A DNA stretch of 64,000 nt from a virus. How positions within the stretch are numbered: position 1 is the first letter of the stretch; each line of letters starts with the position of its first letter. Both the position numbers and the translations under genes were made by a program. A model generated the notes under the pieces. The model was not told the origin of the DNA, did no database searches, and saw nothing but the letters and a program-made list of their open reading frames with translations. The stretch is taken from UHGV virus genome UHGV-0076294; one strand, written 5' to 3'. Of the stretch, positions 7,137 through 64,000 are shown one piece after another.

Positions 7137-7804
7137 TGCTGATTGTTTTTAGTCAAGCGTTATCGATGGCACCGAGTTATATCCAGATACGCTTTTCAGC
7201 AATTGCGCGTCAGCAGTGGGGCTTTAAAGCCCCCTATTCTGACGACCACTATACACTCGGTGAAGTAGCACTTGAACTTGCTTTACGTTCATTGTGGGAA
7301 ATCATTGCATTGTACAATGCAGGTTGTGATATACCGAAAGATTGTTTCCCACAGCGGGTGATTGCACAAGGCACTACGAACACTTACGGTAATCCGGCAT
7401 TGGTGGAAGAGTGCTTAGGCTACGCTAACCAGTCTGGGGAACTGCAACATAACTTTAATCTGGTGATTAACAAAGTCTGGAGTGAGCTGGAAAGCTACCC
7501 TGAAAAGATTATCTGGTTTGATCGTAACCAATTCGTTAAGGAGGTGGCCAGTAAACGACCCGTACGTTTAGTTGCCTTAAAGCCCACCGACCTTGATTTG
7601 AAACAAACCTATCCCTTCCCAGAGGAAATTCGACTTTCTCCAGAAACCGTAGGTCACACTATTTTCAAACAAGGTGACGCCTGGATACTTCCTCACGATC
7701 TAGACCGTTTCCTGCTCAACTCCGATCAGATTCACTCCGGCTATGATTCTCTCGTAAAAGAGTTTCACATCGATCCCTATTTCGCTAAAAACTTTCTTAG
7801 ATAG
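7136..7804 (+). CDS. hypothetical protein
   Basis: 222 aa from an ATG overlapping the upstream stop (TGATG). The track start at 7133 is TTG. Confidence 0.7.
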   Translation: MLIVFSQALSMAPSYIQIRFSAIARQQWGFKAPYSDDHYTLGEVALELALRSLWEIIALYNAGCDIPKDCFPQRVIAQGTTNTYGNPALVEECLGYANQSGELQHNFNLVINKVWSELESYPEKIIWFDRNQFVKEVASKRPVRLVALKPTDLDLKQTYPFPEEIRLSPETVGHTIFKQGDAWILPHDLDRFLLNSDQIHSGYDSLVKEFHIDPYFAKNFLR

Positions 7805-7821
7805 ATATTATTCAGGTGTAG
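7800..7821 (+). promoter_or_regulatory. promoter-like motif, copy 1: GATAGATATTATTCAGGTGTAG
   Basis: Shares GAYAGATATTAT + N4-6 + GTG(A/T)AG with three other sites. Lies 20 nt upstream of ATG 7842. Confidence 0.4.
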
Positions 7822-7841: not shown

Positions 7842-8579
7842 ATGTTGAAAGTTTATGTCCCTCAATTACAACGTATTAATCCCTCGTTGTTCGAGGGATT
7901 CTTTTATAAAATTTGGCCACAATACTTCAATGAACACCTGAAAGACTCAAAATGGTCATCTGTCCAAGGAGAATTCTTTTACACCGCACAATCAGCCTGT
8001 ACAAATGTCTTTACCCACCTCATCTCTGAGGTTATTGACGCTGTCAACACCAACCGAAACTTTGACCTTCGTGACGTCATAATAGATCTCTCAGCGATCT
8101 TCGATAACTACGATTGCGATGACGCAGTATTCGAACATTTCTCCTCTGAAGATGTGTGGGAGGCCGTTTATCAATGGCTAGAATACTACGTGAATTTTCT
8201 ACTTTCCTCGAACATGTTAGAAAATTACAATAAAGCACTCTTTCCCATTTATAACGACTTAATGAACGTTAAACTGACAAAGAATCTCGTTGGTTTTTGG
8301 TATTCGACCTACGACGCTGAAAGCAGGTTGTGGGAAAAAGAAATGATCGCTTACGGCATCGAGCGCGGCGATTATGATGAATTATATCGATGTTATTGGC
8401 CATTCAATCATTACGAAAAAGGGTGTCAAGGCGATCCGTATTTGTGGTCTTTTTATTTCTGTAATCAGACTGGTGTTATTTATCTTGAAGACACCGGTGT
8501 ACGAATCCCTAACGGTACTGATGTAACATACTGCCAATTACGTAAAGACCGGGCTGACGCCATTTATCAGGATTATTAA
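7842..8579 (+). CDS. hypothetical protein
   Basis: 245-aa ORF, SD CGGAG upstream, co-oriented operon. Confidence 0.75.
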   Translation: MLKVYVPQLQRINPSLFEGFFYKIWPQYFNEHLKDSKWSSVQGEFFYTAQSACTNVFTHLISEVIDAVNTNRNFDLRDVIIDLSAIFDNYDCDDAVFEHFSSEDVWEAVYQWLEYYVNFLLSSNMLENYNKALFPIYNDLMNVKLTKNLVGFWYSTYDAESRLWEKEMIAYGIERGDYDELYRCYWPFNHYEKGCQGDPYLWSFYFCNQTGVIYLEDTGVRIPNGTDVTYCQLRKDRADAIYQDY

Positions 8580-10142: not shown

Positions 10143-10174
10143 ACCCTAGCTTCGGCTAGGGTTACTTTATTTTT
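10143..10174 (+). terminator. rho-independent terminator with UUCG loop
   Basis: ACCCTAGC ttcg GCTAGGGT, then TACTTTATTTTT. Confidence 0.75.
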
Positions 10175-12841: not shown

Positions 12842-12907
12842 CTCGGATTATAAGTCAGGGTTACATAGTAAAGTCTTTTTACAGTTCATCCTGAACTTAT
12901 GACCGAG
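12842..12907. promoter_or_regulatory. imperfect 18-nt inverted repeat bracketing the divergent control region
   Basis: CTCGGATTATAAGTCAGG (12842-12859) versus CCTGAACTTATGACCGAG (12890-12907). About 16 pairs with one mismatch and two bulges. The left arm overlaps the SD of the minus gene. Confidence 0.45.
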
Positions 12908-16868: not shown

Positions 16869-16899
16869 TTAAAACCACCTCATTTTCAAAAAGAAGTCA

Positions 16900-16922
16900 G
16901 ACAGATATTATTTACGTGAGAC
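16900..16922 (+). promoter_or_regulatory. promoter-like motif, copy 2: GACAGATATTATTTACGTGAGAC
   Basis: In a divergent intergenic region, 20 nt upstream of ATG 16941. Confidence 0.45.
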
Positions 16923-16940
16923 ATTCTTTCGGAGTGAATT

Positions 16941-17489
16941 ATGTTTACAGGATTAATAACACGTTTTAAGAAACGTCTACAGCAAAAGCGTTTACAGGCT
17001 CTCAGAGAGTCTCTAAGGCAGGAGTTTCATAAGAACATCCATAACCCCTGCGCGAGAACGTTTAGCGGCTTACGGTTGCTTACGTTGCCTATAAACGTAG
17101 ATACCGAACCCTACCACCCCAGCTTACGTGGTAATCTCGAGTTACGTATCGCTAATCTCGATATTCTTTACCAACGTCTTGCTTTTTATATCAACGAATA
17201 CCAACGCACGATTAATGGAACCTCTATCGAGTGGTTATCATTGCCAGAGTCGTTAAGTAAACAAAAAGACTCATCGGAAAACCGCTGGTTAGACACTTAT
17301 TTTGGGACGTCCAATCCGGCGGTTGCCTATTATAAGCTAACGCAGTTACTCGAGCTTATCGAACCTTACGAAGATATTTTCTTAAAGCCCAAGACCGATG
17401 AAGATCGGGCATTGGTAAATCACTGTGCACATTTGTTTCGTGAAATGGAGGTACTCATCGAACACTACCTTTTAAACCGACCTGTTTAA
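16941..17489 (+). CDS. hypothetical protein
   Basis: 182-aa ORF, SD CGGAG; preceded by the promoter-like motif at 16900. Confidence 0.75.
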   Translation: MFTGLITRFKKRLQQKRLQALRESLRQEFHKNIHNPCARTFSGLRLLTLPINVDTEPYHPSLRGNLELRIANLDILYQRLAFYINEYQRTINGTSIEWLSLPESLSKQKDSSENRWLDTYFGTSNPAVAYYKLTQLLELIEPYEDIFLKPKTDEDRALVNHCAHLFREMEVLIEHYLLNRPV

Positions 17490-17522
17490 TAATCAGTTAA
17501 CCCCTTGTAACAAGGTGAAGTG

Positions 17523-21097: not shown

Positions 21098-21101
21098 CAC
21101 C

Positions 21102-21140
21102 TACCCTACTCCCAGACAGGAGTAGGGTATTTTCATTTTT
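21102..21140 (+). terminator. rho-independent terminator; stem identical to the one at 1777
   Basis: TACCCTACTCC cagaca GGAGTAGGGTA, then TTTTCATTTTT. Confidence 0.8.
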
Positions 21141-21160
21141 ACCCTAAAGGAGAATTTACC

Positions 21161-21529
21161 ATGCAAGCTCAGTTTTTTAATACCCCCAACGGGTTCGGTT
21201 TTAGATTCCCTGAATTTGTTTTACCAAAACAAGTTATTGAAGTACCCTTCCCCCGTTATGTGCTATTAGGACTGCGCACTGTACTTGCCAACTTTTCGGG
21301 AAAGACTGTGGAAATTCGTGTGTGGTCAGGTTCGGGAAGTCCTGGTGGTGTTTTGTTTGTCGATTACAATTGGATTAAAAGAACAGGTTTTCCGCTTGTA
21401 CGAAAAGTTGAAGCTGTACACGGATTATCCTTCCACACTCTACTAGGGGATTTATCGTTTCCTGAAACCGGCGATTATTCTTCTCCTGCGGATGACGAAT
21501 ACCAAATTCATCTTGTTTTGTTGAAATGA
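21161..21529 (+). CDS. hypothetical protein
   Basis: 122-aa ORF, SD AAAGGAG, directly after the terminator at 21102. Confidence 0.7.
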   Translation: MQAQFFNTPNGFGFRFPEFVLPKQVIEVPFPRYVLLGLRTVLANFSGKTVEIRVWSGSGSPGGVLFVDYNWIKRTGFPLVRKVEAVHGLSFHTLLGDLSFPETGDYSSPADDEYQIHLVLLK

Positions 21530-21589
21530 TTTTTACAGTTGGGAACAAACTTATGTCTCCCAAGACTGCGTTTAAGCGGAGAAACAATT

Positions 21590-22054
21590 ATGCGTGGATA
21601 TATTCTCGATCTTGCAATTTCTGTAGAAGAACTTGTGGAAAAACTCGGCGGTACCGGTCATGGGCTTCATGGGAAGACCAAAAGCATAGCTCATATTCTC
21701 GAACCAAAATACGAACGGAAACTCCACATGATTGCTTCCGTTCGCAACAAAGCCGCTCACAGGAGAATTCTTCCTGATCGCATAGACGACTATGAACAGG
21801 CTGTGGAAGAAACGAGGCTCTATTTAGAAGAGCTGATTGGGGAAGAAGAACGGAAACGTCGTTGTGAAGAGGAAATAAATCCCAGCTGTCTGGAACGCGA
21901 AGCGATGTGGAGAGAACGGGCAGACGAGGCCAAACGACGTAACGAAGAGAAAAGATGGGACGATATGAGTGTAATAGAAAAGATAGGTTGGGGTGCCGGT
22001 ATTGCAATCATGGGAGCTGCGGTTGCGTACCTTAAAATAAAGTCTCGTGACTAA
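21590..22054 (+). CDS. small HEPN/DUF4145-like protein (RNKAAH motif) with coiled-coil and C-terminal TM anchor
   Basis: 154 aa from ATG 21590 (SD GGAG 8 nt upstream). LHGKTKSIAHILEPKYERKLHMIASVRNKAAH fits the DUF4145/HEPN pattern and contains Rx4H (21743-21760). Charged EEERKRRCEEE region, then the hydrophobic helix IGWGAGIAIMGAAVAYL. Confidence 0.45.
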   Translation: MRGYILDLAISVEELVEKLGGTGHGLHGKTKSIAHILEPKYERKLHMIASVRNKAAHRRILPDRIDDYEQAVEETRLYLEELIGEEERKRRCEEEINPSCLEREAMWRERADEAKRRNEEKRWDDMSVIEKIGWGAGIAIMGAAVAYLKIKSRD

Positions 22055-29241: not shown

Positions 29242-29259
29242 TTTCTACCTCTTTAAGAT

Positions 29260-29279
29260 GGGGGTGGTTTCCCACCCCC
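29260..29279 (-). other. G-rich hairpin without U-tract between the giant gene and the 733-aa gene (GGGGGTGG gaaa CCACCCCC on the mRNA strand)
   Basis: 8-bp GC stem with a GAAA loop, 8 nt after the stop; the SD of the next gene follows. Confidence 0.5.
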
Positions 29280-29286
29280 GTGTTTA

Positions 29287-35200: not shown

Positions 35201-36420
35201 GGACCATCTATCTCACCAGCTATCGCTGAGTTAGAGATAGAAGATAAGTTACCGAACCCGTAGCGTGCCAACTGAAGCCGTTTCATGACTTCTGGGTTCT
35301 TTTCTAACTCACTGCGTGTCCAGTTCTGTAAACGTTCTACTTGCGGTTGTAAGAATCGTTTTGCTAACCAACCACCGGCAAACCCTGCGACTTTACCTCG
35401 GCTATTCGTACGACGACGTTCTGGCGACAGTGTAGAACTGTCTTCCATGTCGAAGTCGTCTTCCTGACCCATTGACAGAACTTGTTCTAATAACCCACGT
35501 CCGTCACTGAAGATATTCGAAATCTTTTTCTTCGCGTTCTCACGGATTTGTTCAATGAACGAATCTGCGTAACGTAAGGGGTTCATCCATTCAGCGGCTT
35601 TACGTTTTACGTTAGCCCAACGAATTTCAGAGAATTCCTCTTTTGCATAATCCGGCAACGCGGTGTTTTTAACAATCGCTTCAAGTGCCGGAGTGTTACG
35701 GCTAAACTCGTCCTGTTTAAGTTTAGCAATATCTTGCAATGCGAATAACGTACGGTATTGCAGCTCTAGCTGTTTACGCTGAACGTTAAGCATCACCCCG
35801 CGACTTAAACTGGTCGTCAGGTTAACGTCTTTCGCAATACCGATAACCGTCTGGAACAGCGCATCGGACTTCATGTCCTTGATGGTGTCACGAAGACGGT
35901 CTTCTACCATTCCTTCCTGAACTTCACGTTGTTGTTCAGGTGTTTGTGGGGTACCTGCAAAAACAGTGTCTAACTCACGATCCATTAACGCTTGTTTAGG
36001 ATCGTAATTCCCGTAATCGTACTGGTCGCTTTTCGCCCATTTATCGATCTTACGGGTTACGCTGTCAGGCAAATACCGTTTTAGGGTTGGGCCTAATTGA
36101 CGAGCTTGTGCCTTCACCACGCGGGAGGTCTTTTCAATCTCGTCTTTCGTATGGGCCAGAATGTCTTGACCTGCGGCTTTGACGTTCTTATAACCTTCAT
36201 AAGCGTCAGACGCCGGTTTTGGCATTCCTTTTAAAATGACCTGATCACGTTTATTTTCGGGCCAGATAGTCGACAATGCCGACTTACGGGCAGCACGAAA
36301 TGTGTCCATGACCGGGTTACGCGATTGGTCTTGTTGACGAGGGGGCTCATCAAAATCGTCCCAGTCGTCCATGTTATCAAGATCGATTTCATCGAAATCG
36401 TCTTTACCTTTTTTAGCCAT
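29287..36420 (-). CDS. giant virion protein with lytic transglycosylase (SLT) domain; tape-measure/cell-puncturing lysin candidate (phiKZ gp181-like)
   Basis: 2377 aa. Acidic N-terminus, central hydrophobic cluster, Arg/Phe-rich repeats, SLT block AMAKAESGFRYGV..AAGLFQFIDSTW..YDPWANTILGVQFI, and an Ala/Ser/Gly/Pro-rich tail. Confidence 0.85.
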   Translation of the reverse strand: MAKKGKDDFDEIDLDNMDDWDDFDEPPRQQDQSRNPVMDTFRAARKSALSTIWPENKRDQVILKGMPKPASDAYEGYKNVKAAGQDILAHTKDEIEKTSRVVKAQARQLGPTLKRYLPDSVTRKIDKWAKSDQYDYGNYDPKQALMDRELDTVFAGTPQTPEQQREVQEGMVEDRLRDTIKDMKSDALFQTVIGIAKDVNLTTSLSRGVMLNVQRKQLELQYRTLFALQDIAKLKQDEFSRNTPALEAIVKNTALPDYAKEEFSEIRWANVKRKAAEWMNPLRYADSFIEQIRENAKKKISNIFSDGRGLLEQVLSMGQEDDFDMEDSSTLSPERRRTNSRGKVAGFAGGWLAKRFLQPQVERLQNWTRSELEKNPEVMKRLQLARYGFGNLSSISNSAIAGEIDGPLATVFRLMHEMGLVTPLRREGLALEERSAEALSAAAKFDRKAYLSITEVIPTLLTEINKSIRRGYGEHHDQVYDLTTRGMVDRKVIGNRVRKAVANDEQRKRLQQYINETVDFIDKDKTLDSKTRQALADYIESRASEGKAFDVGSLLKDPMHMYRYMNANAVEAIQAVLEARSAELVGGHHELSNEIAGKISAIQSTIRARQNTVDEASIIYGENALRDAGIFKYDAKNDRFDVDKDINDPYTLYNDLAMGKTRSGRSLTREQEIQRKLKNGSALGDYLRRLGVDASVTGDESTIDTVRGKGGRGGRGLSARQLAAVLYGEKSTNFVELLSERPDTNAGLEQQFDRIVDAIRNKSESNTVQEILKHVKNMDEEGILLASLGGGRDGEGVASEDAGSTGNKRKRKRIVLGESGLFRRWAGVLWDTGTGAGRFAKNMFLRGKGRLQSLGSFIRGKFSGGSSDGPGVFERLKGLVTGTLSTGWNSAVAFGKGVLGVRDIYDEKGNVVLQGNRLEAGEYYQADPKTNKLVQLRSLDDIKLGRDIVDEAGNLILAAADLAAAGKLRFYKGGKLQALFQYISGKAGTAVNKAVNLPKKLIGLISPRAASIFEKAREWLNEIPEGSEKTRLQSMISRVTGMPARLWNNAKRGFEKFKELATDNPLTRWWQNRKDGGSGGGFSMFSWSNGRKTNHILIRIYKLLNRRLDGEPEDESWTEQLEKNVGSKSIKGMLNRVKDFRDGFKDYFQSFRDWRGRQRDRFSRFRQGVGDRLSRWGAAGKGWFDRFRGRFGETVDSFRDPRYDIGTRYRAESRLAGRDDDVAEFYRQHLYARGKVSPTRVINAAKEDFETATDSAGRVINKGKQKAKSVGSALLERLNRMVNLQEMSWFNTMRDSAERAGAPDGLIRTMFSKFGQRNKPAANDEKRDYFQFFRRRRRSKEEEKAKKSAEQKGRKGGVMDFLKGLPLVGPIVSILGTVGSILGKVAKWGIFKPTGFIGKAAWNVGKFAVQRLAVPAVTAVASAASTVVAAVGWPAIVIGATAAGLGYWAYKCATRVKAQYLDYMRLAQYGFRDYDQWSSEDGMKARYLEDALKPYVSYTEGGEAQLRGLSSEDVKKLAEGFGVNLEERGEMLAFTAFMLQRFAPIYLRWISALKSMDNDIALADVGDPKKVSKADMITLYNKMKMGKDSAEFRSLTDPRKVNQGWFSKAWDFVTFTPAEFLSGEEVVEAQERVWRSINMRTDDKRKQRSGMRDAVEGHKIASVAETSQVLANADAERNEKVAKVEGWEDGTEQVQIQVDWHSLPKKSDLEDLESVRWKTYGAVTINQTTRNLFTLLEKNVLKDIDVKNCTYKGNWKEAIAVISPDLIGGPKEERCKNWFYNRFLPAYMTYVVGLKRYIPQADPTELKVSGGFMYELALMIRGAYNMKGGIRQSVWEIPFNPLGEEANTDAGSVATELANLKELSKEPDLAVRNTLRSTPAAGKRAKWQKADRATRMYQTDEDGKERFKGVVDWGTASNDGYLPNGGSSYGTPGDLSQVVGEMGISNYAKFSTGQSGIKLGDVKEGDYKTLAEKYPISKLGSGKTPNVEGVKAMIADVANTLGVPPAIAIAMAKAESGFRYGVKNPGASAAGLFQFIDSTWSGMMKGYSRRYGIPQVNQYDPWANTILGVQFIRDNIMQAQKDLGGVEPPPAVAYLYHFLGPGGGKKFLNAWRQNPNMPADKAEGITPQILRGNKGVFYEMRGEQIVRIRTVGEVINELNRRMGAVATNEIAANPASTKDMVKGLTPAVASSPAVAAGAANDPSISGATDNLPASNAARRDDALAEKGAMGADNVKAATSGGPAVPSPGGSSAGGDASTIAETVAAGARNEGLPEEDVEKVKEGAVQRVAATSKPAPAVTSDAQNGPTLSSGDPISVQQLAVAKESAGYLREIVTILKQRPQPVQNTVSTQPMAPAGSASRQMSVEQPARQLNVRRAG
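30061..30423 (-). other. SLT (goose-type/Slt70-like) lytic transglycosylase domain inside the giant protein
   Basis: Catalytic Glu in AKAESGF is encoded at 30376-30378 (residue 2015). Followed by GLFQF and the Y..N motifs typical of the family. Confidence 0.8.
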
Positions 36421-36449
36421 AACGTTTAATCCGTATCAGGAGATTTAGC

Positions 36450-38075
36450 GTGAATAAACTTAATTGGGTTGACTTTTATCTGCTCAATGTAAACAAGTCT
36501 CTTGTGTCGCGATTACGACCCGTCACGACCACAGATACTTTTCAAGGGTTGACAAAAAACTTTCACCCTGAAGGGTTGTACTCCACGGAGATTTTCGGTC
36601 TTACGGGAAGTGAAGCCCGAGACTCAACGTTTTCTTACATTGATATTAAATTAGATATCATTTCGCCGACGGTGTGTTTGGCGTTATTCCAACTAAAACA
36701 ACTCTACGAAGAAATTTGTTCTGGAAAACGCTACGCAACCTGGAACGAAAAAGAAAAAGATTTTGAACCGGCTTTGCCTGGCGACGCTGGCGCAGATACC
36801 GGTTTTAACTTTTTCCTTAGTCACTACAACGACTTAAAACCCGGACGTAACGAATCGTTACAACGTGACGAAACGGTGGATTTCTTCGAGAAGTTCCGTC
36901 CCGTGAGTCTTAGCCGCTATGTTCTCGTATTACCCGCGGGTTTACGTGATTTGGTGGTTAGACAAGACGGTAGGGAACAGGAAGAGGAAATCGGTGGGTT
37001 ATATCGTCGTTTGATTTCTTTGGCCAGGGCGATTCCTGACCGTGCTACACGGGTTGAATTAACGAACCCTGTGCGATGGAAACTCCAACAAACCTTTAAC
37101 GAAATCTGGATGTACTTCTTTAACATCCAGGACGGTAAAGGAGGTTTCCAACGTCGTAAAGTGACGTCGCGTAAACTGATGAACGGGACACGTAACGTAT
37201 TGTCCTCATTCTCCACAGGCTCTAAATGCATGGGGCGTGAGGATGCGATTCGACCGACCGACACCAAAATTGGTTTGTATCAGGGTCTGAAAGCGTTGCT
37301 ACCTGTTGCGCAATACCAGATACGTGAACGTTACCTCGGTAACATTCGTGCTGGCGATGGCAACCTTTATGGCGTAAACACCAAAACGCTTAAACGCGAG
37401 TTCTTGGAGGTTGGGGGTCGTGTTTACGACACCTTTACCACAGACGACGGTATCGAAACATTAATTAACCGGATGGAAGCTCGCGAGCTTCGTCATCAAC
37501 CGTTAATGATTAACGATACCCATTACGTCGCACTGGTCTACCAAGACAACAAACATTTTAAGGTGTTCTACGATATCGATGAACTGCCTAAAACGTTTGA
37601 CCGTAAAAACGTCCACGGAATGACCCTGGTAGAATTACTCTACTTATCGGGTTACGAACTGTGGAACAACTATTTCGGTTTCGTTACGCGTTATCCCGTC
37701 ACCGGTCGAGGCTCGACGTACTCATCGACCATAAGATTGGAGACCACCACGTCATCTTTATACCTAAAAGAACTGGAAGATGACTGGGAGACTGAAAAGC
37801 CACACGGAGCTATCAGTTATCCTGACAGGTCGGTTCCAACCTTTGTTGAGTCGATGGCACCGCACCCGTCACGATTGGGTGGCTTAGGGGGTGACTACGA
37901 TGGTGACACCGGTTCACTTAACGCGCCTATGTCGCAAGAAGCACTCGAGGAAAACCGTAACTGGATACACTCGAAGAACTACTGGTTCGATTCTGACGGG
38001 AATTTCAAAATCAATCCTGTCAACAACGTGATTAAACGTGCGACGCAAGCGTTATTAAAGAATCCAAAAGGCTAA
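36450..38075 (+). CDS. multisubunit RNA polymerase beta' subunit, N-terminal fragment (phiKZ gp180-like)
   Basis: 541 aa, GTG start with SD AGGAG 7 nt upstream. VLVLPAGLRDLV, VTRYPVTGRGS and GGDYDGDTGSLNAPMSQEALEE align with RpoC VLPPDLRP, NRAPTLHRLG and [22 protein letters not shown]. Confidence 0.85.
   Translation: MNKLNWVDFYLLNVNKSLVSRLRPVTTTDTFQGLTKNFHPEGLYSTEIFGLTGSEARDSTFSYIDIKLDIISPTVCLALFQLKQLYEEICSGKRYATWNEKEKDFEPALPGDAGADTGFNFFLSHYNDLKPGRNESLQRDETVDFFEKFRPVSLSRYVLVLPAGLRDLVVRQDGREQEEEIGGLYRRLISLARAIPDRATRVELTNPVRWKLQQTFNEIWMYFFNIQDGKGGFQRRKVTSRKLMNGTRNVLSSFSTGSKCMGREDAIRPTDTKIGLYQGLKALLPVAQYQIRERYLGNIRAGDGNLYGVNTKTLKREFLEVGGRVYDTFTTDDGIETLINRMEARELRHQPLMINDTHYVALVYQDNKHFKVFYDIDELPKTFDRKNVHGMTLVELLYLSGYELWNNYFGFVTRYPVTGRGSTYSSTIRLETTTSSLYLKELEDDWETEKPHGAISYPDRSVPTFVESMAPHPSRLGGLGGDYDGDTGSLNAPMSQEALEENRNWIHSKNYWFDSDGNFKINPVNNVIKRATQALLKNPKG
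37893..37907 (+). other. catalytic metal-binding loop DYDGD of the beta'-like subunit
   Basis: Codons GAC TAC GAT GGT GAC, residues 482-486. Confidence 0.8.
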
Positions 38076-38078
38076 TCA

Positions 38079-41000
38079 ATGCTGCTCATTAAACAGTTTA
38101 ACCAACGCTTCTCTGTGCGTAAAACAGACGAGTTTGGTAATCCGAGGATTATCCCGCTCGAGAAGCTCCAGATACCACGAGGCTCTATACTGCACGTCGT
38201 GGATCTCGATCAGGTGGTCTTAGCGCCACCTGCTACGCTGGAAATCATCCAGCCGTTGGAAAAACCTGCACAAATTCGCCACCACTTTAAACTTCCCGAA
38301 GAAGGGATCAGTGGGCATCCACGTAACAAACCTGTGCAGGGGCAAGAACGTGCTATCTTTGCGTACCATCGCGCTAACCGTCCAATTCGTCGCCTGACTT
38401 CAGACGACCTGATTCGTAAAGACTTAAAAGTTCTCCTTATCGAGAACTACACACCGATGTTATCGCATTACTACTATCCAGACACTCAGTTAGCCTGGTA
38501 CGATAGACTGCGTAACATCCAGCTGTTAATGACTAACCAGTTCAAATACGACACGCAAGAATACATGCGTCAAAACTACTTCGTGATTGAGCTGGGGTCA
38601 ACGTTACCGTCTTTCCAGAAGTTCCAAACGACGTATAACGATCGTGTTAAAAGCAAGATTGAAAAGTTCCAGGACTTTAACCTGTTGTGGTTATTGGAAC
38701 TGTTCGCTTGGGCATACGGTAAACAGTCCGATTCTCTGTTTGCAGGAATGGACTTAACGCAACTGTCTCGAATGAACTTCATCTTCACCCACAACAGCGG
38801 CTTTACGTCGATGAACATGGGTGTCGTGGAGAAGATGCGTAAATCGTCCGGTGGTCGTTTAAGTGACGATCAAATGGCCAGGATGTTCTATCGTACGTTA
38901 GTGCGTGTAATGACACAAGCACCGTCTAATGCGTACGAAGCTGAATTCCTGACACCGGAAGGTGATGAACGTATCTTTGTTAAGGACATCGAAGAGGATA
39001 CCGTTGACGTCGTTGACGATACAGACGTTGTTAACGACGCTGTGGTTGAATCGGATAACGCTTTCGATGAAAAAGAAGACCTCGTTATTGAGGAGCCGAA
39101 AGAAGACGTTAAGCCGACGACTATCGTTATCGAAAAAACGATTGCTCACGATGACATTATCAAACAGGAAGCGCAGAAACTGGCTGAGGCGGGCCGCTTA
39201 AGCTCCAAAGCGTATCAGTTCCTGTCTGATTCGACCAAACGTTTCGTTCAGTTACCAAACCCGTACAACCCGAAAGAGACTTACGGCGAAGCATTAACCA
39301 TTCACGAAAAAGACATTGCCGTGAAAGCGGAACCGAAGAAAGTCCAGCGACTGGTTACGGATGAAGGTTGGGCAGAAAACGTCACCGACCAAATGGTGAA
39401 ACAATACAACCAGACCATGATGAGTAAAGACGTGCTGGCAGCAGTCGCCAGCTCGCAGCGTCTTGGTTTGGCTATTCACAACCACACGATCGAGAAAGAG
39501 ATTTCCGTTACGGGAACTATCGAACACCACACCCTGCGAGTTCAACCGATTGGTGGTGAACCGACGACAGTGCGTTTCTCTATCCCTGGTTTAACCGAAG
39601 ACGGTACCTGGGTAGCAAACGGTGTTGAATACACCATGCGTCGTCAGCGTGTAGACGTGCCGATTCGTAAGGTCGCCCCAGACACCGTAGCGTTAACTAC
39701 CGCTTACGGTAAAAACTTCGTACGTCGTAGTGACAAAGTCGCAAACGACTACGGCCGTTGGTTAACGAACGCGATTATCACGCGTGCCGTAGACCCGACC
39801 AACACGGAGATCACAGACGCACGACTCGCGAACGTTTTCGATCCTACTGAGAAACTTCCTCGTCAGTACACGGAGATTGCACGTCGTATCGCCAGCTTCA
39901 ATGCAGGCGGGTATATGTGGAACTTCGATTATAAAGAAGCGGTTAACTTCTTTAATGACGAACAACTTACTGACGCAAATAACGTTGAGATGTTGCCGGT
40001 TGCGAAACGTCCGCGCAGTGAAGTTATTGTGGTGATGGATACCAAGTCCATGCTCTATACCGTTAAAGGTAAAGAGTGTACACCACTGGGTACCATCTTG
40101 GAAGTGCTTGGTTTCAGTAGCCAGAAAGCGCCAAGAGAAATGACTGAGCTTTCACTGATGGGCAAATCGCTCTCACTGGGCTTCATCTTCTCGTTCTATT
40201 TAGGTCTGCAAGGGATGCTTAAACATTTCGGCATTCAGTACGAAATCGTCCCTGTTGGCCAACGTGTAGATAAGAGCACGTACGATTCTATTATTCGTCT
40301 CCAGGACAGTAAGTTCCTGGTAACGTGTGATAACGATCAGCAACGAATGATTCTACACGGTCTGGATAAGTACCTGAAACACCTGGTGGCTTATACCGAG
40401 TCCGAAGTCGACCGCGAAGACATTTACCTGAACTTAATACGTGATGCAGATGGGCTAACCCCACGCTACATCAACGAGCTGAAACAAATGCGGGCCGCGT
40501 TTGTTGATGACATGCACGCACGTATCCTCAGGAAAATGGGTGAACCGGAAACCTTTATCGGGCTATTGGAACGTTCTAACGAACTGTTACAAACCGACCA
40601 CTCTTTACCGGAGATTAACGGTGATGAGATGATGTTCTTAGGGAACCAACGTATTTCCTACCACATCTACACTGCGATGGTCAGGGCGATGCGTAACTAC
40701 AACAACGCACCGAACAGTAACCGTAAGTTCGAGCTTACTCAGGACATGATTTGGGGCGCAATTAACTCCGACCCGTCTGTTCTGTTAGCGCCGGGTGCTA
40801 ACCCTATCCAGTCGATTAAAGAGAAAGACGTTATCACCATGGGGGGTACGGGCGGCCGTAACCGTAAAACAATGGTTTATCACACGCGTGAGTTCCAACC
40901 GAGTGACCTGGGTATTGTTTCCGGTAACACGGTGGATAACGGTGATGTAGGTATTACTGCTTTCGCCACTAACAACCCACGTTTCGATACCGTTGACGGC

Positions 41001-42245
41001 ACAACCTATAAACGGGATGAAAAGAAACTGAAACCGAGCGACACTCTGTCATTTATTGACGGTCTCGTGCCGGATACCCTGATGGATGACGCTAAACGTC
41101 AAAACTTCGTTGGGATTCAGTTAGGTTCTGCCACCAGTTGCAACGGCGCTACCACTACCCCTTATCGTACCGAACAGGAGAAATTTGTCGCTCACCGTAC
41201 GTCGGTGAAACACGCACGCGTTATTGATAAAGCAGGTAAAATCACCGGTCTGTCTAAAGACCATATCGAAATTACGTACGAAGATGGAAGTAAAGAAGCC
41301 TTTCCTCTAGGGCGCTGGTTCGGCCCCCACGAAGGTACCTTCTATCCGCACACCCTGGTGACTCGCTGGAAAGCCGGTGACAAACTCCCGGCCGGGGCAG
41401 TCATCACTTATAACGAGCAACACTTTGAACCCGATATCTACGACCCTACTCAGGTTTCCTGGAAAAACGGGGTGCTGGCTACCGTCGCTTTAATCGAGGC
41501 TGAAGAAGTAATCGAAGACTCCAATGCTATTTCTGAACGGTTCGCGAAGAAAATGGTTGGGCAGGTTACTAAGCTGAAAGAAGTGGTGATTAACAGCAAC
41601 CAGATGCTCCTGGAAATCGTTAACGAAGGGGAACACGTTGACGTCGACACAATCCTATGCACATTTACTGACGACCTTACGGGGGATATGAGTACCTTTA
41701 GTAAGGAAGCAGCACAAACGTTGCAAAGTTTAAGTTCGTACGCACCTCGTGCTGGGGTTCGTGGTATCGTGGATAAAATCGAAGTCGTGTATCACGGTGA
41801 AACCGAAGACATGACGCCTTCACTGGCAGAACTGGTACGCAAATACGATCGTATTCGTCGTAAAGCAGCGTTGGCTGTTAATCGTGGCGATCCGGTATCA
41901 GGGAGTGTTAATGGGGATTACCGTGTAGAGGGTGTACCGTTAGCCTTTAACTCGCTTTGTGTTCGATTCTTTATTACGCACGAAGTTGAAATGGCCGCAG
42001 CGGATAAGATGGTTATTGCTAACCAGCTGAAAACCACTGTACAAGAAGTGATGTACGGGGAAAACAAAACAGAAGATGGCGACGACATTGACATTTTGTT
42101 CGGTCGTGATTCTGTCGACGCACGTATTGTAGGTTCTATCCAACGAATCGGTACCGCAAATGCTGTGGGTGAACAAGCAGGGATTCTTATCGGTCGTATT
42201 CTCGACGGCGAGTCCGTGCCTGAGTTACCAGCGACACTTAAATAA
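38079..42245 (+). CDS. multisubunit RNA polymerase beta subunit, large N-terminal fragment (phiKZ gp178-like)
   Basis: 1388 aa. HTREFQPSDLGIVSGNTVDNGDVGITAFA (cf. HYGR.CPIETPEGPNIGLI), AADKMVIANQLKTTV (cf. GDKMAGRHGNKGVIS) and DIDILFGRDSVDARIVGSI (cf. VDIVLNPLGVPSRMNIGQI). Ends where the 15063 module begins in the RpoB alignment. Confidence 0.75.
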   Translation: MLLIKQFNQRFSVRKTDEFGNPRIIPLEKLQIPRGSILHVVDLDQVVLAPPATLEIIQPLEKPAQIRHHFKLPEEGISGHPRNKPVQGQERAIFAYHRANRPIRRLTSDDLIRKDLKVLLIENYTPMLSHYYYPDTQLAWYDRLRNIQLLMTNQFKYDTQEYMRQNYFVIELGSTLPSFQKFQTTYNDRVKSKIEKFQDFNLLWLLELFAWAYGKQSDSLFAGMDLTQLSRMNFIFTHNSGFTSMNMGVVEKMRKSSGGRLSDDQMARMFYRTLVRVMTQAPSNAYEAEFLTPEGDERIFVKDIEEDTVDVVDDTDVVNDAVVESDNAFDEKEDLVIEEPKEDVKPTTIVIEKTIAHDDIIKQEAQKLAEAGRLSSKAYQFLSDSTKRFVQLPNPYNPKETYGEALTIHEKDIAVKAEPKKVQRLVTDEGWAENVTDQMVKQYNQTMMSKDVLAAVASSQRLGLAIHNHTIEKEISVTGTIEHHTLRVQPIGGEPTTVRFSIPGLTEDGTWVANGVEYTMRRQRVDVPIRKVAPDTVALTTAYGKNFVRRSDKVANDYGRWLTNAIITRAVDPTNTEITDARLANVFDPTEKLPRQYTEIARRIASFNAGGYMWNFDYKEAVNFFNDEQLTDANNVEMLPVAKRPRSEVIVVMDTKSMLYTVKGKECTPLGTILEVLGFSSQKAPREMTELSLMGKSLSLGFIFSFYLGLQGMLKHFGIQYEIVPVGQRVDKSTYDSIIRLQDSKFLVTCDNDQQRMILHGLDKYLKHLVAYTESEVDREDIYLNLIRDADGLTPRYINELKQMRAAFVDDMHARILRKMGEPETFIGLLERSNELLQTDHSLPEINGDEMMFLGNQRISYHIYTAMVRAMRNYNNAPNSNRKFELTQDMIWGAINSDPSVLLAPGANPIQSIKEKDVITMGGTGGRNRKTMVYHTREFQPSDLGIVSGNTVDNGDVGITAFATNNPRFDTVDGTTYKRDEKKLKPSDTLSFIDGLVPDTLMDDAKRQNFVGIQLGSATSCNGATTTPYRTEQEKFVAHRTSVKHARVIDKAGKITGLSKDHIEITYEDGSKEAFPLGRWFGPHEGTFYPHTLVTRWKAGDKLPAGAVITYNEQHFEPDIYDPTQVSWKNGVLATVALIEAEEVIEDSNAISERFAKKMVGQVTKLKEVVINSNQMLLEIVNEGEHVDVDTILCTFTDDLTGDMSTFSKEAAQTLQSLSSYAPRAGVRGIVDKIEVVYHGETEDMTPSLAELVRKYDRIRRKAALAVNRGDPVSGSVNGDYRVEGVPLAFNSLCVRFFITHEVEMAAADKMVIANQLKTTVQEVMYGENKTEDGDDIDILFGRDSVDARIVGSIQRIGTANAVGEQAGILIGRILDGESVPELPATLK

Positions 42246-47229: not shown

Positions 47230-47270
47230 CGGGTAGTCTATCCAGTGGATAGACTACCCTACCTATTTTT
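47230..47270 (+). terminator. rho-independent terminator
   Basis: 13-bp stem GGGTAGTCTATCC agt GGATAGACTACCC, then TACCTATTTTT. Confidence 0.75.
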
Positions 47271-47290
47271 AACCCTATTGAAAAATATCT

Positions 47291-47315
47291 TAGATATATA
47301 TTACTTAGGTGAGCG
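47291..47315 (+). promoter_or_regulatory. promoter-like motif, copy 3 (variant): TAGATATATATTACTTAGGTGAGCG
   Basis: Just after the terminator at 47230, 50 nt upstream of ATG 47365. Confidence 0.4.
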
Positions 47316-47364
47316 TTGTAGAATTACACGCTATTCGACTTGTTAACCTAAAGGAGTATTAAAG

Positions 47365-47754
47365 ATGAAAAACGAATTATTCAAAGACCCGTTTGTTGTA
47401 TTACTGATTTCTACTCGTGCTATCATGCGTCCAGATGACCTGGAACGATTAATTACAGACGAAGCTTATCTGTGCGAGCAGCGTGACAAACTACTGAACA
47501 AAGAATGTCCAGATGAGTTAATCGAACCTTTTGTACGTATCATTCGCGATGAAGAATGGCGTAAAAAAAATCAACTGTCTGAAAACATCGCCGTATCAGT
47601 TGGATGTCTGTTTATGGTTTTTAAGTTCGACAAAGACATCTGGTACCTCTTTACTGACGAAGAACGCAAAGTCTTAATGGACGATCTTCAACTTGCCACA
47701 AAACGTGTTAACAAATTCGTCGCTAACCGTACGCAGGTAAATCTGGAAAGATAA
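47365..47754 (+). CDS. hypothetical protein (tandem paralog C1)
   Basis: 129 aa. FKDPFVVLLIS and FVRIIRDEEWRKKNQL align with the next ORF. Confidence 0.75.
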   Translation: MKNELFKDPFVVLLISTRAIMRPDDLERLITDEAYLCEQRDKLLNKECPDELIEPFVRIIRDEEWRKKNQLSENIAVSVGCLFMVFKFDKDIWYLFTDEERKVLMDDLQLATKRVNKFVANRTQVNLER

Positions 47755-62053: not shown

Positions 62054-62075
62054 CAGTGAACCTCGAAATTATTAC

Positions 62076-62099
62076 GGATAGATATTATCCTAGTGAGAG
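62076..62099 (+). promoter_or_regulatory. promoter-like motif, copy 4: GGATAGATATTATCCTAGTGAGAG
   Basis: In a divergent intergenic region, 27 nt upstream of ATG 62126. Confidence 0.45.
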
Positions 62100-62125: not shown

Positions 62126-63250
62126 ATGAGAAATTATCTGCGCAAACCCGCTTGGCACAAGATGTTGCGTGAAGGTACCATCGACCGCGAACAGCAAGTC
62201 AAGATGTGGGTGCTTCCTCACGGCGTAATTTGTGACCTGGTCAGAGTCGGTGGGATGGACATCCTGCGTAACGGTACCTACGACGCCGTCAACTCGTTCT
62301 TAGCACGAGAACTGGCGGAAGCAGGGTTACAAGGTGAGGTGTTATTTTACACCACCCGTGTTATCCCGCAAACATTGTCTAAGTGGTTAACGTACTGGCT
62401 GTCTAGTGACCCTGACGCATCAGACCCCGAACTCAGTTCGGTAACGATTACCACACTAGGCCAGTATCCCACGAAACCCTTACCATTTCAGGTGAACGTT
62501 GTTGAGCCGTTAATCGTAAAAGCCGGTGACGTGTTTGACATGATTAAAGTCAAATCCCGTAACCAAGCCGTTTCCCAGTTTATCATCGAAACGGGTGAAC
62601 ACACATTCCGATTAGAACCTGTCCGTAAAACCGATGCGACGCTGCTGGCCGTAACGGATTACGGAATCGTTTGTCGTTCTTCCGAAGGGCACACCTTCCT
62701 GTGCACGATACTCTCACGACGTATTCAGGCACAGTTAGAACACTACAAACTTTCCCTGGAAGACATCGTCGGTACGACGTTACGTATCGAATACACGATG
62801 TACACGGAAGGGAATCGGTTGTGTAATTACAAGTCCCCTATCGCATACCGAGCGTTAGCGCTGGACAACATGGGAGACTGGGTCTCAACGACATACGAAG
62901 GGCCTTCCCCGTTCAAAACCATCCCAACCCAACGACCGGCGTTGTTGACCGTCACCCGCTGTAACCGTGCCGAGATTTTCGAGGAAGAGGGTGTGATTTC
63001 CGGTTACGAACGTGAAACAGGATTAACGCTTTTCCGCTTCCGACGGGGTGCGGAGTACGGTCGCTATGCTGCCGTGTTCGAACGAGACGGTAAGCAAGAA
63101 ACCTGGCTTTTCGATTCGGATTTCTCCGTTGAGGTGATTGACCCTGAAGGCTTTGTGGCTTCAGTGGGGAGTCAGATTTTCTACGCCACGGGCTACAGCC
63201 TGCTGGACGTAAAACTGCACTACCCTCAGAAAGAACAGGTCTGTCCGTAA
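62126..63250 (+). CDS. hypothetical protein
   Basis: 374 aa from ATG 62126 (SD AAAGGAG 8 nt upstream). The track start GTG 62093 lies inside the promoter-like motif. Confidence 0.8.
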   Translation: MRNYLRKPAWHKMLREGTIDREQQVKMWVLPHGVICDLVRVGGMDILRNGTYDAVNSFLARELAEAGLQGEVLFYTTRVIPQTLSKWLTYWLSSDPDASDPELSSVTITTLGQYPTKPLPFQVNVVEPLIVKAGDVFDMIKVKSRNQAVSQFIIETGEHTFRLEPVRKTDATLLAVTDYGIVCRSSEGHTFLCTILSRRIQAQLEHYKLSLEDIVGTTLRIEYTMYTEGNRLCNYKSPIAYRALALDNMGDWVSTTYEGPSPFKTIPTQRPALLTVTRCNRAEIFEEEGVISGYERETGLTLFRFRRGAEYGRYAAVFERDGKQETWLFDSDFSVEVIDPEGFVASVGSQIFYATGYSLLDVKLHYPQKEQVCP

Positions 63251-63258
63251 AAAATTAT

Positions 63259-63298
63259 CGGGTGGCTTCGGCCACCTGTTTTTTTTTATTTTTTTTTG
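63259..63298. terminator. bidirectional terminator
   Basis: CGGGTGGC ttcg GCCACCTG followed by T9AT9; AAAAAA on the 5' side serves the opposite direction. Confidence 0.8.
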
Positions 63299-63752
63299 CC
63301 AAAAAACTTCGACCTCCTCAGAGCGATTCTAACGTATTTTTAGGTCGAGGTGGTACGTTCGTATACCCTGGGTGAGTTTTTCTCGTTAGAGAGCTTCTCA
63401 GGAAGAATTTGACGGGGTTTTATTCCCTGTCGAAGAATTTATTTTAACCCAAACCGCAACAAACCCCAAAACCGGGTGCTGGGATGTCTCTGGAAACCCT
63501 ATCCGGTTGGTGATTTTTTAACCGGATTTCGTAAAACGCTCTAGAAACGATTTTAACGCGGTTTTTACCCCTACCCAGTACACTTGGGTTACCTGATCCT
63601 GTTTAGCGCGATGTGGAGCGATTGAGAAAGCGTACGACCCATTGCCGAGGGTGGGTGAGACCCGACCCTGCCACCCGACGGCCAGCCGCCGCGCCGATCA
63701 AAAAAACATTCACGCTTCGCGTACTAACGGATCAAGTGATTGGATCAACGTT

Positions 63753-63779
63753 TTGAATCTTCACACACTGAAGATTCAA
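63753..63779. repeat. perfect 11-bp hairpin TTGAATCTTCA cacac TGAAGATTCAA
   Basis: Read directly from the sequence. Confidence 0.8.
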
Positions 63780-63816
63780 GTTGAGTAGTTATCTTGCTTG
63801 GTTTTTTAAATACTCA

Positions 63817-63837
63817 CGAGAGACCTCAAGTCTCTCG
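63817..63837. repeat. perfect 8-bp hairpin CGAGAGAC ctcaa GTCTCTCG
   Basis: Read directly from the sequence. Confidence 0.8.
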
Positions 63838-63892
63838 GATCGATCTTAAAAATTTAACTCTCTCAAAAAACCTGATCTCAAAATCTCTTCCT

Positions 63893-63920
63893 TATACGCG
63901 TGTGCGTGCGCACACGTATA
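63893..63920. repeat. 28-nt perfect alternating pyrimidine-purine tract (YR)14, also an imperfect palindrome
   Basis: TATACGCGTGTGCGTGCGCACACGTATA. TATACG/CGTATA and TGTGCG/CGCACA arms. Confidence 0.85.
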
Positions 63921-63922
63921 GT

Positions 63923-63950
63923 ATAATATATTTATTTATAAATATATTAT
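63923..63950. promoter_or_regulatory. perfect 12-bp AT-only inverted repeat (ATAATATATTTA ttta TAAATATATTAT) carrying outward-facing copies of the ATATTAT promoter-like core
   Basis: Plus strand reads AAATATATTATTCC (cf. copy 1 GATATTATTCA). Minus strand reads AAATATATTATACTATACGTGTG (cf. copy 2 GATATTATTTACGTGAG). Confidence 0.4.
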
Positions 63951-64000
63951 TCCTTTAGGATCAAAATAATAATACCTTTAGGTATTATTTAATTATATAT

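What the first reader, a model, noticed from the sequence alone, without database searches (positions are those of the whole stretch)
62076..62099. Recurrent promoter-like motif GAYAGATATTAT-N4-6-GTGAG upstream of rightward transcription units
Four plus-strand copies precede genes that start a new unit after a terminator or a divergent junction, 20-50 nt upstream of the start codon. They are 7800 GATAGATATTATTCAGGTGTAG, 16900 GACAGATATTATTTACGTGAGAC, 62076 GGATAGATATTATCCTAGTGAGAG and the variant 47291 TAGATATATATTACTTAGGTGAGCG. No convincing -35 element accompanies them, as expected if a phage RNAP rather than host sigma70 reads them. I recall an A/T-rich TATATTAC-like early consensus for phiKZ but cannot verify it. 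Copy 4 overlaps the tracked GTG start at 62093, which argues for ATG 62126.
Basis: seen in the sequence. Interest (0 to 1): 0.5.

Follow-up and report, generated by a model that had tools for sequence, protein, structure and literature searches.

The report
Jumbo-phage early promoters, phiKZ type
The four repeated AT-rich boxes are real and are almost certainly early promoters read by the giant phage's own virion-carried RNA polymerase, a motif already described in related jumbo phages, so this is a sound but ordinary annotation.

Summary
GAYAKATATTAY-N4-GTG occurs four times in the window (7800, 16900, 47293, 62077), all on the + strand, against 0.01 expected by chance. Nothing else matches, even with two mismatches. 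The window comes from a ~225-kb SPN3US/phiEaH2-clade jumbo phage and carries virion RNA polymerase genes (36450-42245).

A weight matrix built only from other genomes ranks these four sites first. Each has a copy of the same subtype at the orthologous position in SPN3US and phiEaH2. Across SPN3US the loose core occurs 24 times: 23 on the + strand, and 20 of those 23 in the 7% of the genome that is intergenic.

The consensus (A-rich, TTTC, AGATAKATATTAY, N4, GTGAG) nearly equals the published predicted early promoters of phages N1M2 and OBP, and contains phiKZ's TATATTAC. Three of the four copies have no sigma-70 -35 box.

Two subtypes exist:
- Class I (47293): AGATATATATTAC, placed after a terminator and followed by a covarying stem-loop at the predicted 5' end of the transcript.
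- Class II (the other three): AGAYAGATATTAT, no stem-loop, short leader.

ATG 62126 is the true start of that gene. No transcription start sites have been mapped in this clade, so the polymerase assignment and timing are inferred. This is a new member of a known kind, of modest interest.

The parts
7781..7820 (+). Class II promoter copy. A-rich segment CTAAAAAC, core AGATAGATATTAT at 7799-7811, N4, GTGTA at 7816-7820. Predicted TSS near G7816. Overlaps the stop codon of ORF 7133-7804.
   Evidence: (PWM 17.7). Orthologous copies in phiEaH2 (AAATAGATATTAT) and SPN3US (AGATAGATATTAT).
16881..16920 (+). Class II promoter copy at a divergent junction. AAAAAGAAGTC, then core AGACAGATATTAT at 16899-16911, N4, GTGAG at 16916-16920. 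Predicted TSS near G16916.
   Evidence: (PWM 26.0). The identical AGACAGATATTAT core is kept in phiEaH2 and SPN3US. A marginal sigma-70-like hit overlaps this copy only.
47274..47313 (+). Class I (canonical) promoter copy. GAAAAATATCTT, then core AGATATATATTAC at 47292-47304, TTAG, GTGAG at 47309-47313. Predicted TSS near G47309.
   Evidence: (PWM 47.6). Exact pattern conserved in SPN3US (L061) and near-exact in phiEaH2.
62058..62097 (+). Class II promoter copy at a divergent junction (the copy in the finding). GAAATTATTAC, then core GGATAGATATTAT at 62076-62088, CCTA, GTGAG at 62093-62097. Predicted TSS near G62093.
   Evidence: (PWM 21.6). Orthologues in EC001/SPN3US (GGATATATGTTAT), phiEaH2 (GGATAGATATTAT) and an 83%-identical IMG/VR contig (L042, identical motif).
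47312..47332 (+). Stem-loop at the predicted 5' end of the class I transcript (AGCGT.GTA / TACACGCT), positions +4 to +24.
   Evidence: RNAfold gives -7.4 kcal/mol. The same position is a covarying hairpin in 42 of 44 unique class I sites of related phages.
47231..47259 (+). Intrinsic terminator hairpin (13 bp) with a T-rich tail, ending the preceding unit just upstream of the class I promoter.
   Evidence: The terminator-then-promoter arrangement recurs at class I sites in relatives.
7842..8579 (+). First gene downstream of copy 7800. Unknown function (phrog_8219).
16941..17489 (+). First gene downstream of copy 16900. Unknown function (phrog_8650).
47365..47754 (+). First gene downstream of copy 47293. 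Unknown function (phrog_27024).
62126..63250 (+). First gene downstream of copy 62077. Unknown function (phrog_8136). The true start is ATG 62126, not GTG 62093.
36450..42245 (+). Two genes for multisubunit RNAP beta-like fragments, orthologues of SPN3US virion RNAP gp240/gp241. This is the enzyme proposed to read the motif. No copy of the motif lies upstream of them.
   Evidence: phrog_2986, phrog_3148; SPN3US synteny; no motif at 36420-36450.

Best explanation
The four sites are early promoters of a phiKZ-related (SPN3US/phiEaH2-clade) jumbo phage. They are probably recognised by the multisubunit virion RNA polymerase that is injected with the DNA.

The element spans about 40 bp: an A-rich stretch and TTTC around -30 to -18, an extended -10-like core AGATAKATATTAY around -17 to -5, a 4-nt spacer, and a purine start inside GTGAG. 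Transcription would start at or within about 2 nt of the first G of GTGAG (7816, 16916, 47309, 62093). It would run rightward into operons of small genes of unknown function until the next intrinsic terminator.

Two subtypes exist.
- Class I (47293): AGATATATATTAC with a strong upstream element. It follows a terminator, and its transcript would begin with a stem-loop.
- Class II (7800, 16900, 62077): AGAYAGATATTAT with a weaker upstream element, no 5' hairpin and a short leader.

Shown here: the sequence, the statistics, cross-genus conservation, strand and intergenic bias, and the match to published consensuses. Inferred by analogy: the TSS position, early timing and the identity of the polymerase.
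For: 1. Non-random and discrete. There are 4 exact matches against 0.01 expected, and none is added at 2 mismatches.

2. Independent PWM. Trained on 50 sites from other contigs, it ranks the four sites first in the window.

3. Phylogenetic footprint. Each site has a copy of the same subtype at the orthologous position in SPN3US and phiEaH2, which share only about 70-76% nucleotide identity with the window in the regions that align at all.

4. Genome-wide behaviour in SPN3US.
- 24 matches to the loose core, 23 of them on the + strand.
- 20 of the 23 + strand matches are intergenic, where intergenic DNA is 6.9% of the genome (P about 1e-20).
- Most of these lie about 40-115 nt upstream of a + strand start codon.
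- In loci from 99%-identical contigs of the window's own phage, every copy has the window's + orientation.

5. Match to published consensuses (PMC7058600 Table 2).
- N1M2: TBYAWWWWWTTTCARRYAKATATTATYWAAGTGWA
- OBP: ...TTTYARRYAKATATTATYWWADTG
- 201phi2-1: ...BTATATTACDWHDGTG
- phiKZ: TATATTAC

6. Literature on this class of phage.
- Every RNAP-encoding jumbo phage has such an AT-rich motif centred near -10 of early TSSs, and it was verified as the early promoter consensus wherever transcripts were profiled (PMC7598289).
- In phiKZ, early transcription needs neither host RNAP nor protein synthesis (PMC7598289).
- TSS mapping in phiKZ and 201phi2-1 agrees (PMC8244752; PMC11512511).

7. The enzyme is encoded. 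Virion RNAP subunit genes lie in the window.

8. Position of the RNAP genes. In SPN3US the other set of RNAP genes lies just downstream of such sites: 28971 precedes 29014, and 15614/15707 precede 15768-19299. These genes are taken to be non-virion because they fall outside the virion set known from the literature. The virion RNAP genes have no such site upstream. This is as the model requires.

9. No sigma-70 architecture at three of the four copies.
Against: - No TSS, timing or inhibitor data exist for this phage or, as far as the searchable literature shows, for any SPN3US-clade phage.
- With the TSS at the G of GTGAG, class I places TATATT at -12 to -7. That is one mismatch from the sigma-70 -10 hexamer, with an A-rich UP-like region upstream, so recognition by host RNAP cannot be excluded from sequence alone.
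- Copy 16900 has a marginal -35.
- Copy 7800 scores only just above the shuffle maximum with the class-I-weighted PWM (17.7 against 17.1), and its GTGAG is GTGTA.
- The class II copies differ from class I in three linked features, so they might belong to another temporal class.
Confidence: 0.8

Rival explanations
1. Only the class I copy (47293) is a virion-RNAP early promoter. The three class II copies (7800, 16900, 62077) form a separate temporal class, such as delayed-early or middle. They would be read by the virion RNAP with an extra factor, or by the non-virion RNAP.
For: Class I and class II differ discretely in three linked features:
- core sequence: T with a final C in class I, against G with a final T in class II;
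- strength of the upstream A-rich/TTTC element;
- presence of the 5' stem-loop (mean z -2.4 in class I, -0.5 in class II) and leader length.

Subtype identity is conserved site by site across three genera.
Against: - A class II site is the only motif copy directly upstream of the putative non-virion RNAP beta genes of SPN3US (28971 precedes 29014). It lies behind a minus-strand gene, and these genes must be expressed before the non-virion enzyme exists.
- The published OBP and N1M2 'early' consensus is the class II form, AKATATTAT.
- Middle and late promoters of phiKZ look quite different: a TACT/A-rich element at about -22, and TATG at the TSS.
- Hybrid sites exist, such as SPN3US 4429 (ATAGATATTAC with a hairpin).
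Confidence: 0.12
2. The sites are host sigma-70 promoters (-10 plus UP element, no -35) that host RNA polymerase uses at the onset of infection.
For: - TATATT/TATTAT is one mismatch from TATAAT and sits at a suitable distance from a purine.
- An A/T-rich tract lies upstream.
- Copy 16900 gives a 9-of-12 sigma-70 match.
- For some RNAP-encoding jumbo phages, growth is rifampicin-sensitive (PMC7598289).
Against: - Three of the four copies give no sigma-70-type match, and there is no TG extension.
- The most strongly conserved positions include ones sigma-70 does not read: AGA upstream of the hexamer, the final C/T, GTGAG at the start, and TTTC at about -20.
- The same extended consensus is shared by phages of Pseudomonas, Klebsiella, Salmonella and Erwinia.
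- In phiKZ it is used independently of host RNAP.
Confidence: 0.06
3. The conserved box is an operator for a phage DNA-binding regulator rather than the polymerase recognition element itself.
For: The class II consensus in SPN3US, AGATA-GATAT-TATCT, is partly palindromic. The PWM also fires weakly on the minus strand at the same places.
Against: - The dyad is not kept in the window copies, which end ...TTATTC...TTATTT and ...TTATCC.
- Strict strand polarity (23 of 24 in SPN3US) argues for a directional promoter.
- So do the fixed distance to a purine start and the asymmetric flanking elements.
Confidence: 0.02

Closest known systems
Predicted early promoters of jumbo phages OBP and N1M2 (Cornelissen et al. 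2012; Lewis et al. 2020, PMC7058600 Table 2)
   Same: The consensus is almost identical over about 30 nt: A-rich, TTTCA, RRYAKATATTATY, about 4 nt, GTG(W)A. The sites precede operons of mostly unknown genes on the coding strand, at dozens of sites per genome (31 in N1M2).
   Different: Those phages belong to a different clade and infect Pseudomonas or Klebsiella. Only one consensus was reported for them. Here two discrete subtypes coexist, and the TATATTAC subtype carries a 5' stem-loop. Those promoters are also only predicted, not mapped.
phiKZ and 201phi2-1 early promoters read by the virion RNAP (Ceyssens 2014; Wicke 2021, PMC8244752; PMC11512511)
   Same: The AT-rich extended -10-like box contains TATATTAC, which is exact in window copy 47293. 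A T-rich/A-rich element lies upstream of about -19. The TSS is about 10 nt downstream of the box centre. These sites are used by a multisubunit virion RNAP independently of the host.
   Different: The flanking consensus differs in detail. For phiKZ and 201phi2-1 the TSSs are mapped experimentally, whereas here nothing is mapped. The class II form (AGATAGATATTAT) is not the phiKZ form.
AR9/PBS2 early promoters (Lavysh 2017, PMC5312081)
   Same: The logic is the same: an over-represented AT-rich motif near -10 upstream of early operons, first found bioinformatically and then confirmed by dRNA-seq and primer extension.
   Different: The sequence is different, the genome contains uracil, and the phage does not form a nucleus.
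Bacterial sigma-70 -10 / UP-element promoters
   Same: A TATAAT-like hexamer lies about 7 nt from a purine start, with an A/T-rich region upstream.
   Different: There is no -35 box and no TG extension at three of the four copies. Additional invariant positions lie outside the sigma-70 contacts.

Membership tests
phiKZ-type jumbo-phage early (virion-RNAP) promoter | The phage encodes split multisubunit RNAP beta/beta' homologues, including a virion set. | tested here: met
   Window ORFs 36450-38075 and 38079-42245 hit phrog_2986 and phrog_3148, 'RNA polymerase beta subunit' (E 2e-235 and 0). They are syntenic with SPN3US virion RNAP gp240/gp241. A second set of RNAP genes, outside the virion set, is present in SPN3US but lies outside this window.
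phiKZ-type jumbo-phage early (virion-RNAP) promoter | A highly conserved AT-rich box of about 10 nt matching TATATTAC / AKATATTAT. | tested here: met
   The window cores are AGATATATATTAC (47292), AGATAGATATTAT (7799), AGACAGATATTAT (16899) and GGATAGATATTAT (62076). The published consensuses are in PMC7058600 Table 2.
phiKZ-type jumbo-phage early (virion-RNAP) promoter | Conserved A/T-rich upstream element (about -20 to -30), with a consensus extending to the start site (...TTTCA...GTG). | tested here: met
   The 50-site matrix gives gATTAAAAATaATTTC-AGATATATATTAC-cTAG-GTGAGA, with high information at several upstream positions. All four window copies carry A-runs at the corresponding place.
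phiKZ-type jumbo-phage early (virion-RNAP) promoter | Over-represented, strand-specific and intergenic, lying upstream of operons. | tested here: met
   Window: 4 of 4 on the + strand, against 0.01 expected. SPN3US: 23 of 24 on the + strand, and 20 of 23 intergenic (P about 1e-20).
phiKZ-type jumbo-phage early (virion-RNAP) promoter | Non-virion RNAP genes lie downstream of such promoters, and virion RNAP genes do not. | tested here: met
   In SPN3US, sites 28971 and 15614/15707 precede the putative non-virion RNAP genes (29014-33356 and 17704-19299). No site lies upstream of window 36450 or of SPN3US 212357. This was tested in the relative, not in the window's own genome.
phiKZ-type jumbo-phage early (virion-RNAP) promoter | A primary transcript 5' end lies about 10 nt downstream of the box centre. 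| not testable with these tools
   No transcript data are available. The position is predicted only from the covarying stem, which begins at +1 to +3 of GTGAG.
phiKZ-type jumbo-phage early (virion-RNAP) promoter | Active in the first minutes of infection, and resistant to rifampicin and to inhibition of protein synthesis. | not testable with these tools
   This has been shown for phiKZ and AR9 only (PMC7598289). No such data were found for the SPN3US clade.
Bacterial sigma-70 promoter | A TTGACA-like -35 box 16-18 bp upstream of a TATAAT-like -10 box, or a TGn extended -10. | tested here: not met
   The scan finds no match at 7800, 47293 or 62077. It finds one marginal 9-of-12 match at 16883-16911, without TG.

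The most novel reading that the evidence does not exclude
The SPN3US clade may run a two-tier early programme encoded in the promoter itself.

- Class I promoters (AGATATATATTAC) are insulated by an upstream terminator. Their transcripts would start with a covarying 5'-terminal stem-loop at +3 to +10, paired in 42 of 44 unique sites. That stem-loop could protect early mRNAs from 5'-end-dependent decay, or could act as a recognition or escape signal for the virion RNAP.
- Class II promoters (AGATAGATATTAT) lack the stem-loop and drive short-leader transcripts, including those of the putative non-virion RNAP genes.

I did not find such a linked promoter and 5'-hairpin dichotomy described in the searchable literature.
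Probability: 0.3. Interest if true: 0.45.

Novelty: new member of a known kind. Interest (0 to 1): 0.3.

Why it matters
The result gives a usable transcription map for this stretch of an uncharacterised ~225-kb jumbo phage.
- It predicts four early transcription units, running rightward from about 7816, 16916, 47309 and 62093 and probably ending at the next intrinsic terminator; for the first three that lies near 10165, 21130 and 49530 (read from the sequence, not called by the terminator scan), and the fourth has a terminator-like hairpin and T-run just after 63250.
- It corrects one start codon: 62126, not 62093.
- It flags the genes downstream of the four sites, all of unknown function, as candidate host-takeover or early functions.

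It also shows that the OBP/N1M2/phiKZ early-promoter consensus extends, position for position, to the enterobacterial SPN3US/phiEaH2 clade, and that it comes there in two conserved subtypes. That is useful for annotation, for engineering these phages, and for designing virion-RNAP templates. It is not a new principle.

Tried and rejected
- A fifth weak copy at 12901 (GACCGAGATTAT, 2 mismatches, at a divergent junction) was rejected. It scores below the PWM threshold in the window, and the PWM finds nothing at the orthologous SPN3US or phiEaH2 position.
A tighter pattern worked, but about 25 of its hits in small contigs are coding sequence (..FEDIYYVGEV..), an unrelated coincidence, and were excluded.
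- RNAalifold on an ungapped alignment of the class I leaders predicted no structure, because the loop lengths differ. Per-sequence folding and a pair table were used instead. Those pair counts derive from MFE folds and therefore lean towards pairing.
- Rfam (gathering thresholds) and ARAGORN found nothing in the window.
- TTTTTAC was considered as a second promoter-like motif. It is not over-represented overall (23 against 19.9).
- Ceyssens et al. 2014 (PMC4178840) is not held in the library. The exact phiKZ box-to-TSS distance is therefore taken from secondary sources.
- Searches for SPN3US transcript or rifampicin data found none.
- My crude ORF caller mis-set a few starts, for example SPN3US 72738. 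The record's own annotation tables therefore take precedence for gene positions, and the distance range quoted leaves out the sites where that caller mis-set the next start.

Full report
**What the window is**

Megablast and blastn against GenBank phages find only distant relatives: the aligned parts are about 67-76% identical and cover only part of each query. All of them are about 240-kb jumbo phages of the SPN3US (Seoulvirus), phiEaH2 and Asesino group.

Two IMG/VR contigs are 99% identical to the window. One of them is 224,831 bp long and lies in the reverse orientation. ORFs 36450-38075 and 38079-42245 are multisubunit RNAP beta-like fragments, syntenic with the SPN3US virion RNAP genes. 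The window therefore comes from a phiKZ-related, RNAP-encoding jumbo phage. According to a 2026 review, SPN3US and Asesino form a phage nucleus.

**Checking the observation**

The four quoted strings are at the stated coordinates.

- GAYAGATATTAT is exact three times.
- GAYAKATATTAYNNNNGTG matches four times, all on the + strand, against 0.01 expected. Allowing two mismatches adds nothing.

Because that pattern was derived from the sites themselves, I built an independent test.
- An exact scan of IMG/VR for the canonical form returned 74 loci.
- About 25 of them are a coding-sequence coincidence in small contigs. About 50 lie in SPN3US-like jumbo contigs.
- A softened weight matrix from those 50 sites, excluding the window's own copies, scores the window's four sites at 47.6, 26.0, 21.6 and 17.7. 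The next hit scores 10.2, and the maximum in shuffles is 17.1.

Details that need correcting:
- The spacer is always 4 nt.
- Copy 7800 overlaps the stop codon of a co-directional ORF; it does not follow a terminator or a divergent junction.
- The conserved element is about 40 bp long and includes an upstream A-rich/TTTC segment.
- GTGAG is well kept only in one subtype.

**Conservation and genome-wide behaviour**

I fetched the whole SPN3US genome and the syntenic 75 kb of phiEaH2.

Each of the four window sites has a counterpart at the orthologous position in both phages, and the subtype is kept:
- the 16900 orthologue is AGACAGATATTAT in all three;
- the 62077 orthologue is GGATAGATATTAT or GGATATATGTTAT;
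- the 47293 orthologue is AGATATATATTAC or AGATATATTTTAC;
- the 7800 orthologue is A(G/A)ATAGATATTAT.

Across SPN3US, a loose 11-mer core matches 24 times, 23 of them on the + strand. Of those 23, 20 lie in the 6.9% of the genome that my ORF call leaves intergenic (binomial P about 1e-20). Most of them sit about 40-115 nt upstream of a + strand gene.

In loci from the two 99%-identical contigs of the window's own phage, every copy has the window's + orientation. Together they add four class I copies and one class II copy outside the window.

It is also passed, as far as the data reach, in the phage itself.

**What it is**

The derived consensus is gATTAAAAATaATTTC-AGATATATATTAC-yTAG-GTGAGA.

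PMC7058600 Table 2 lists predicted early promoters for related jumbo phages:
- N1M2: TBYAWWWWWTTTCARRYAKATATTATYWAAGTGWA (31 sites)
- OBP: ...TTTYARRYAKATATTATYWWADTG
- 201phi2-1: ...BTATATTACDWHDGTG
- phiKZ: TATATTAC

The window motif is plainly the same element.

A review of these polymerases makes three relevant points (PMC7598289):
- Every RNAP-encoding jumbo phage has such an AT-rich motif centred near -10 of early genes.
- Wherever transcripts were profiled, the motif proved to be the early promoter consensus.
- In phiKZ, early transcription needs neither host RNAP nor new protein, which points to the injected virion RNAP.

[quoted passage not shown] ONT-cappable-seq in 201phi2-1 places the motif about 10 bp upstream of the TSS.

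The sigma-70 scan finds nothing at three of the four copies and a marginal 9-of-12 match at 16900.

In SPN3US, the second set of RNAP genes, which lies outside the virion set, sits directly behind such sites. The virion RNAP genes do not. This is what the virion-RNAP-first model requires.

The genes downstream of the four window copies all have unknown function, as is typical of early genes in these phages.

**Two subtypes**

The sites fall into two discrete classes.

- Class I has the core AGATATATATTAC, a strong A-rich/TTTC upstream element and GTGAGA. It usually lies just after an intrinsic terminator. A hairpin starts at +1 to +3 of GTGAG.
  - 42 of 44 unique class I sites fold this way, with a mean z of -2.4.
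  - Several pair types occur at stem positions +7, +9 and +10, which is covariation.
- Class II has the core AGAYAGATATTAT, a weaker upstream element, a variable start region, no hairpin (mean z -0.5) and a short leader.

In the window, 47293 is class I, with its terminator at 47231-47259 and its hairpin at 47312-47332. The other three copies are class II.

The stem often includes the first G of GTGAG (GUGAGAG...CUCUCAC), so the TSS is probably at that G or just before it. This placement puts TATATT at -12 to -7.

**Mechanism and rivals**

The best reading (0.8) is that all four sites are virion-RNAP early promoters starting rightward units.

The main rival (0.12) is that class II belongs to a separate temporal class. 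Three things weaken it:
- a class II site lies upstream of the putative non-virion RNAP genes in SPN3US;
- the OBP and N1M2 'early' consensus is the class II form;
- phiKZ middle and late motifs are quite different.

Use by host sigma-70 (0.06) cannot be excluded from sequence, given the TATAAT-like hexamer. It does not explain the invariant positions outside the sigma-70 contacts, nor the sharing of the motif among phages of four host genera.

An operator reading (0.02) rests only on a partial dyad that the window copies do not keep.

**The start-codon claim**

GTG 62093 is the GTG of the motif and has no ribosome-binding site. ATG 62126 has AAGGAG 8 nt upstream. The PHROG profile aligns from residue 1 of the ATG-start protein, and the orthologues start there.

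**Verdict**

This is a correct and well-spotted observation with a correct interpretation. The element is a new instance of a known kind of promoter. Its subtype structure and the 5' hairpin are the only parts that may be new.

No experiment on this clade is available, so the TSS, the timing and the polymerase remain inferred.

Noticed in passing
window 47312-47332; related loci L037, L070, L061, L113, L120-L177 (class I sites): Class I promoter copies across SPN3US-clade phages are followed by a covarying stem-loop at +3 to +10 of the predicted transcript. It is present in 42 of 44 unique sites, with a mean z of -2.4. It is absent from class II copies. It may be a 5'-terminal element that stabilises the mRNA.
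   Followed up: partly
window 7878-7900: A terminator-like 9-bp hairpin (AATCCCTCG...CGAGGGATT) followed by CTTTTAT lies 36 nt inside gene 7842-8579, just downstream of promoter copy 7800. It could be an attenuator or chance.
   Followed up: no
window 171, 12876, 21136, 21530, 44796, 46614, 62118 (+ strand): TTTTTAC/TTTTTAAC recurs in + strand intergenic regions shortly before start codons, often right after terminator T-runs. It is not over-represented in the window as a whole (23 against 19.9 expected). It may be part of another promoter class, or just T-rich terminator tails.
   Followed up: partly
window 63251-64000: After a strong terminator there are at least 750 nt without a convincing ORF. 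The stretch mixes GC-rich and very AT-rich segments and contains a perfect 13-nt palindrome, ATAATATATTTAT/ATAAATATATTAT, at 63923-63950. It corresponds to the genome-end region of SPN3US. It could be an origin or terminus region.
   Followed up: partly
L183 (phiEaH2) about 20984-21877, record 115984-116877: Annotated phiEaH2 gp142 spans what is a divergent junction in the window and in SPN3US: a minus-strand gene start, then a class II promoter, then a plus-strand gene start. The annotation is probably wrong.
   Followed up: no
IMG/VR loci L006, L012, L018, L046, L048 and about 20 others: Exact matches to AGATATATATTACGTAGGTGAG in small contigs are coding sequence for a conserved peptide (..FEDIYYVGEV..) of an unrelated phage group. 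This is a coincidence that would contaminate any naive database count of the motif.
   Followed up: partly
L070 position 12050 (minus strand of the locus; the window phage's genome outside the window): A further class II copy (AAATAGATATTAT) lies upstream of a gene whose SPN3US and phiEaH2 counterparts, judged from matching flanking sequence, are annotated as a transglycosylase. The site is conserved in SPN3US (174956) and phiEaH2 (98731).
   Followed up: partly
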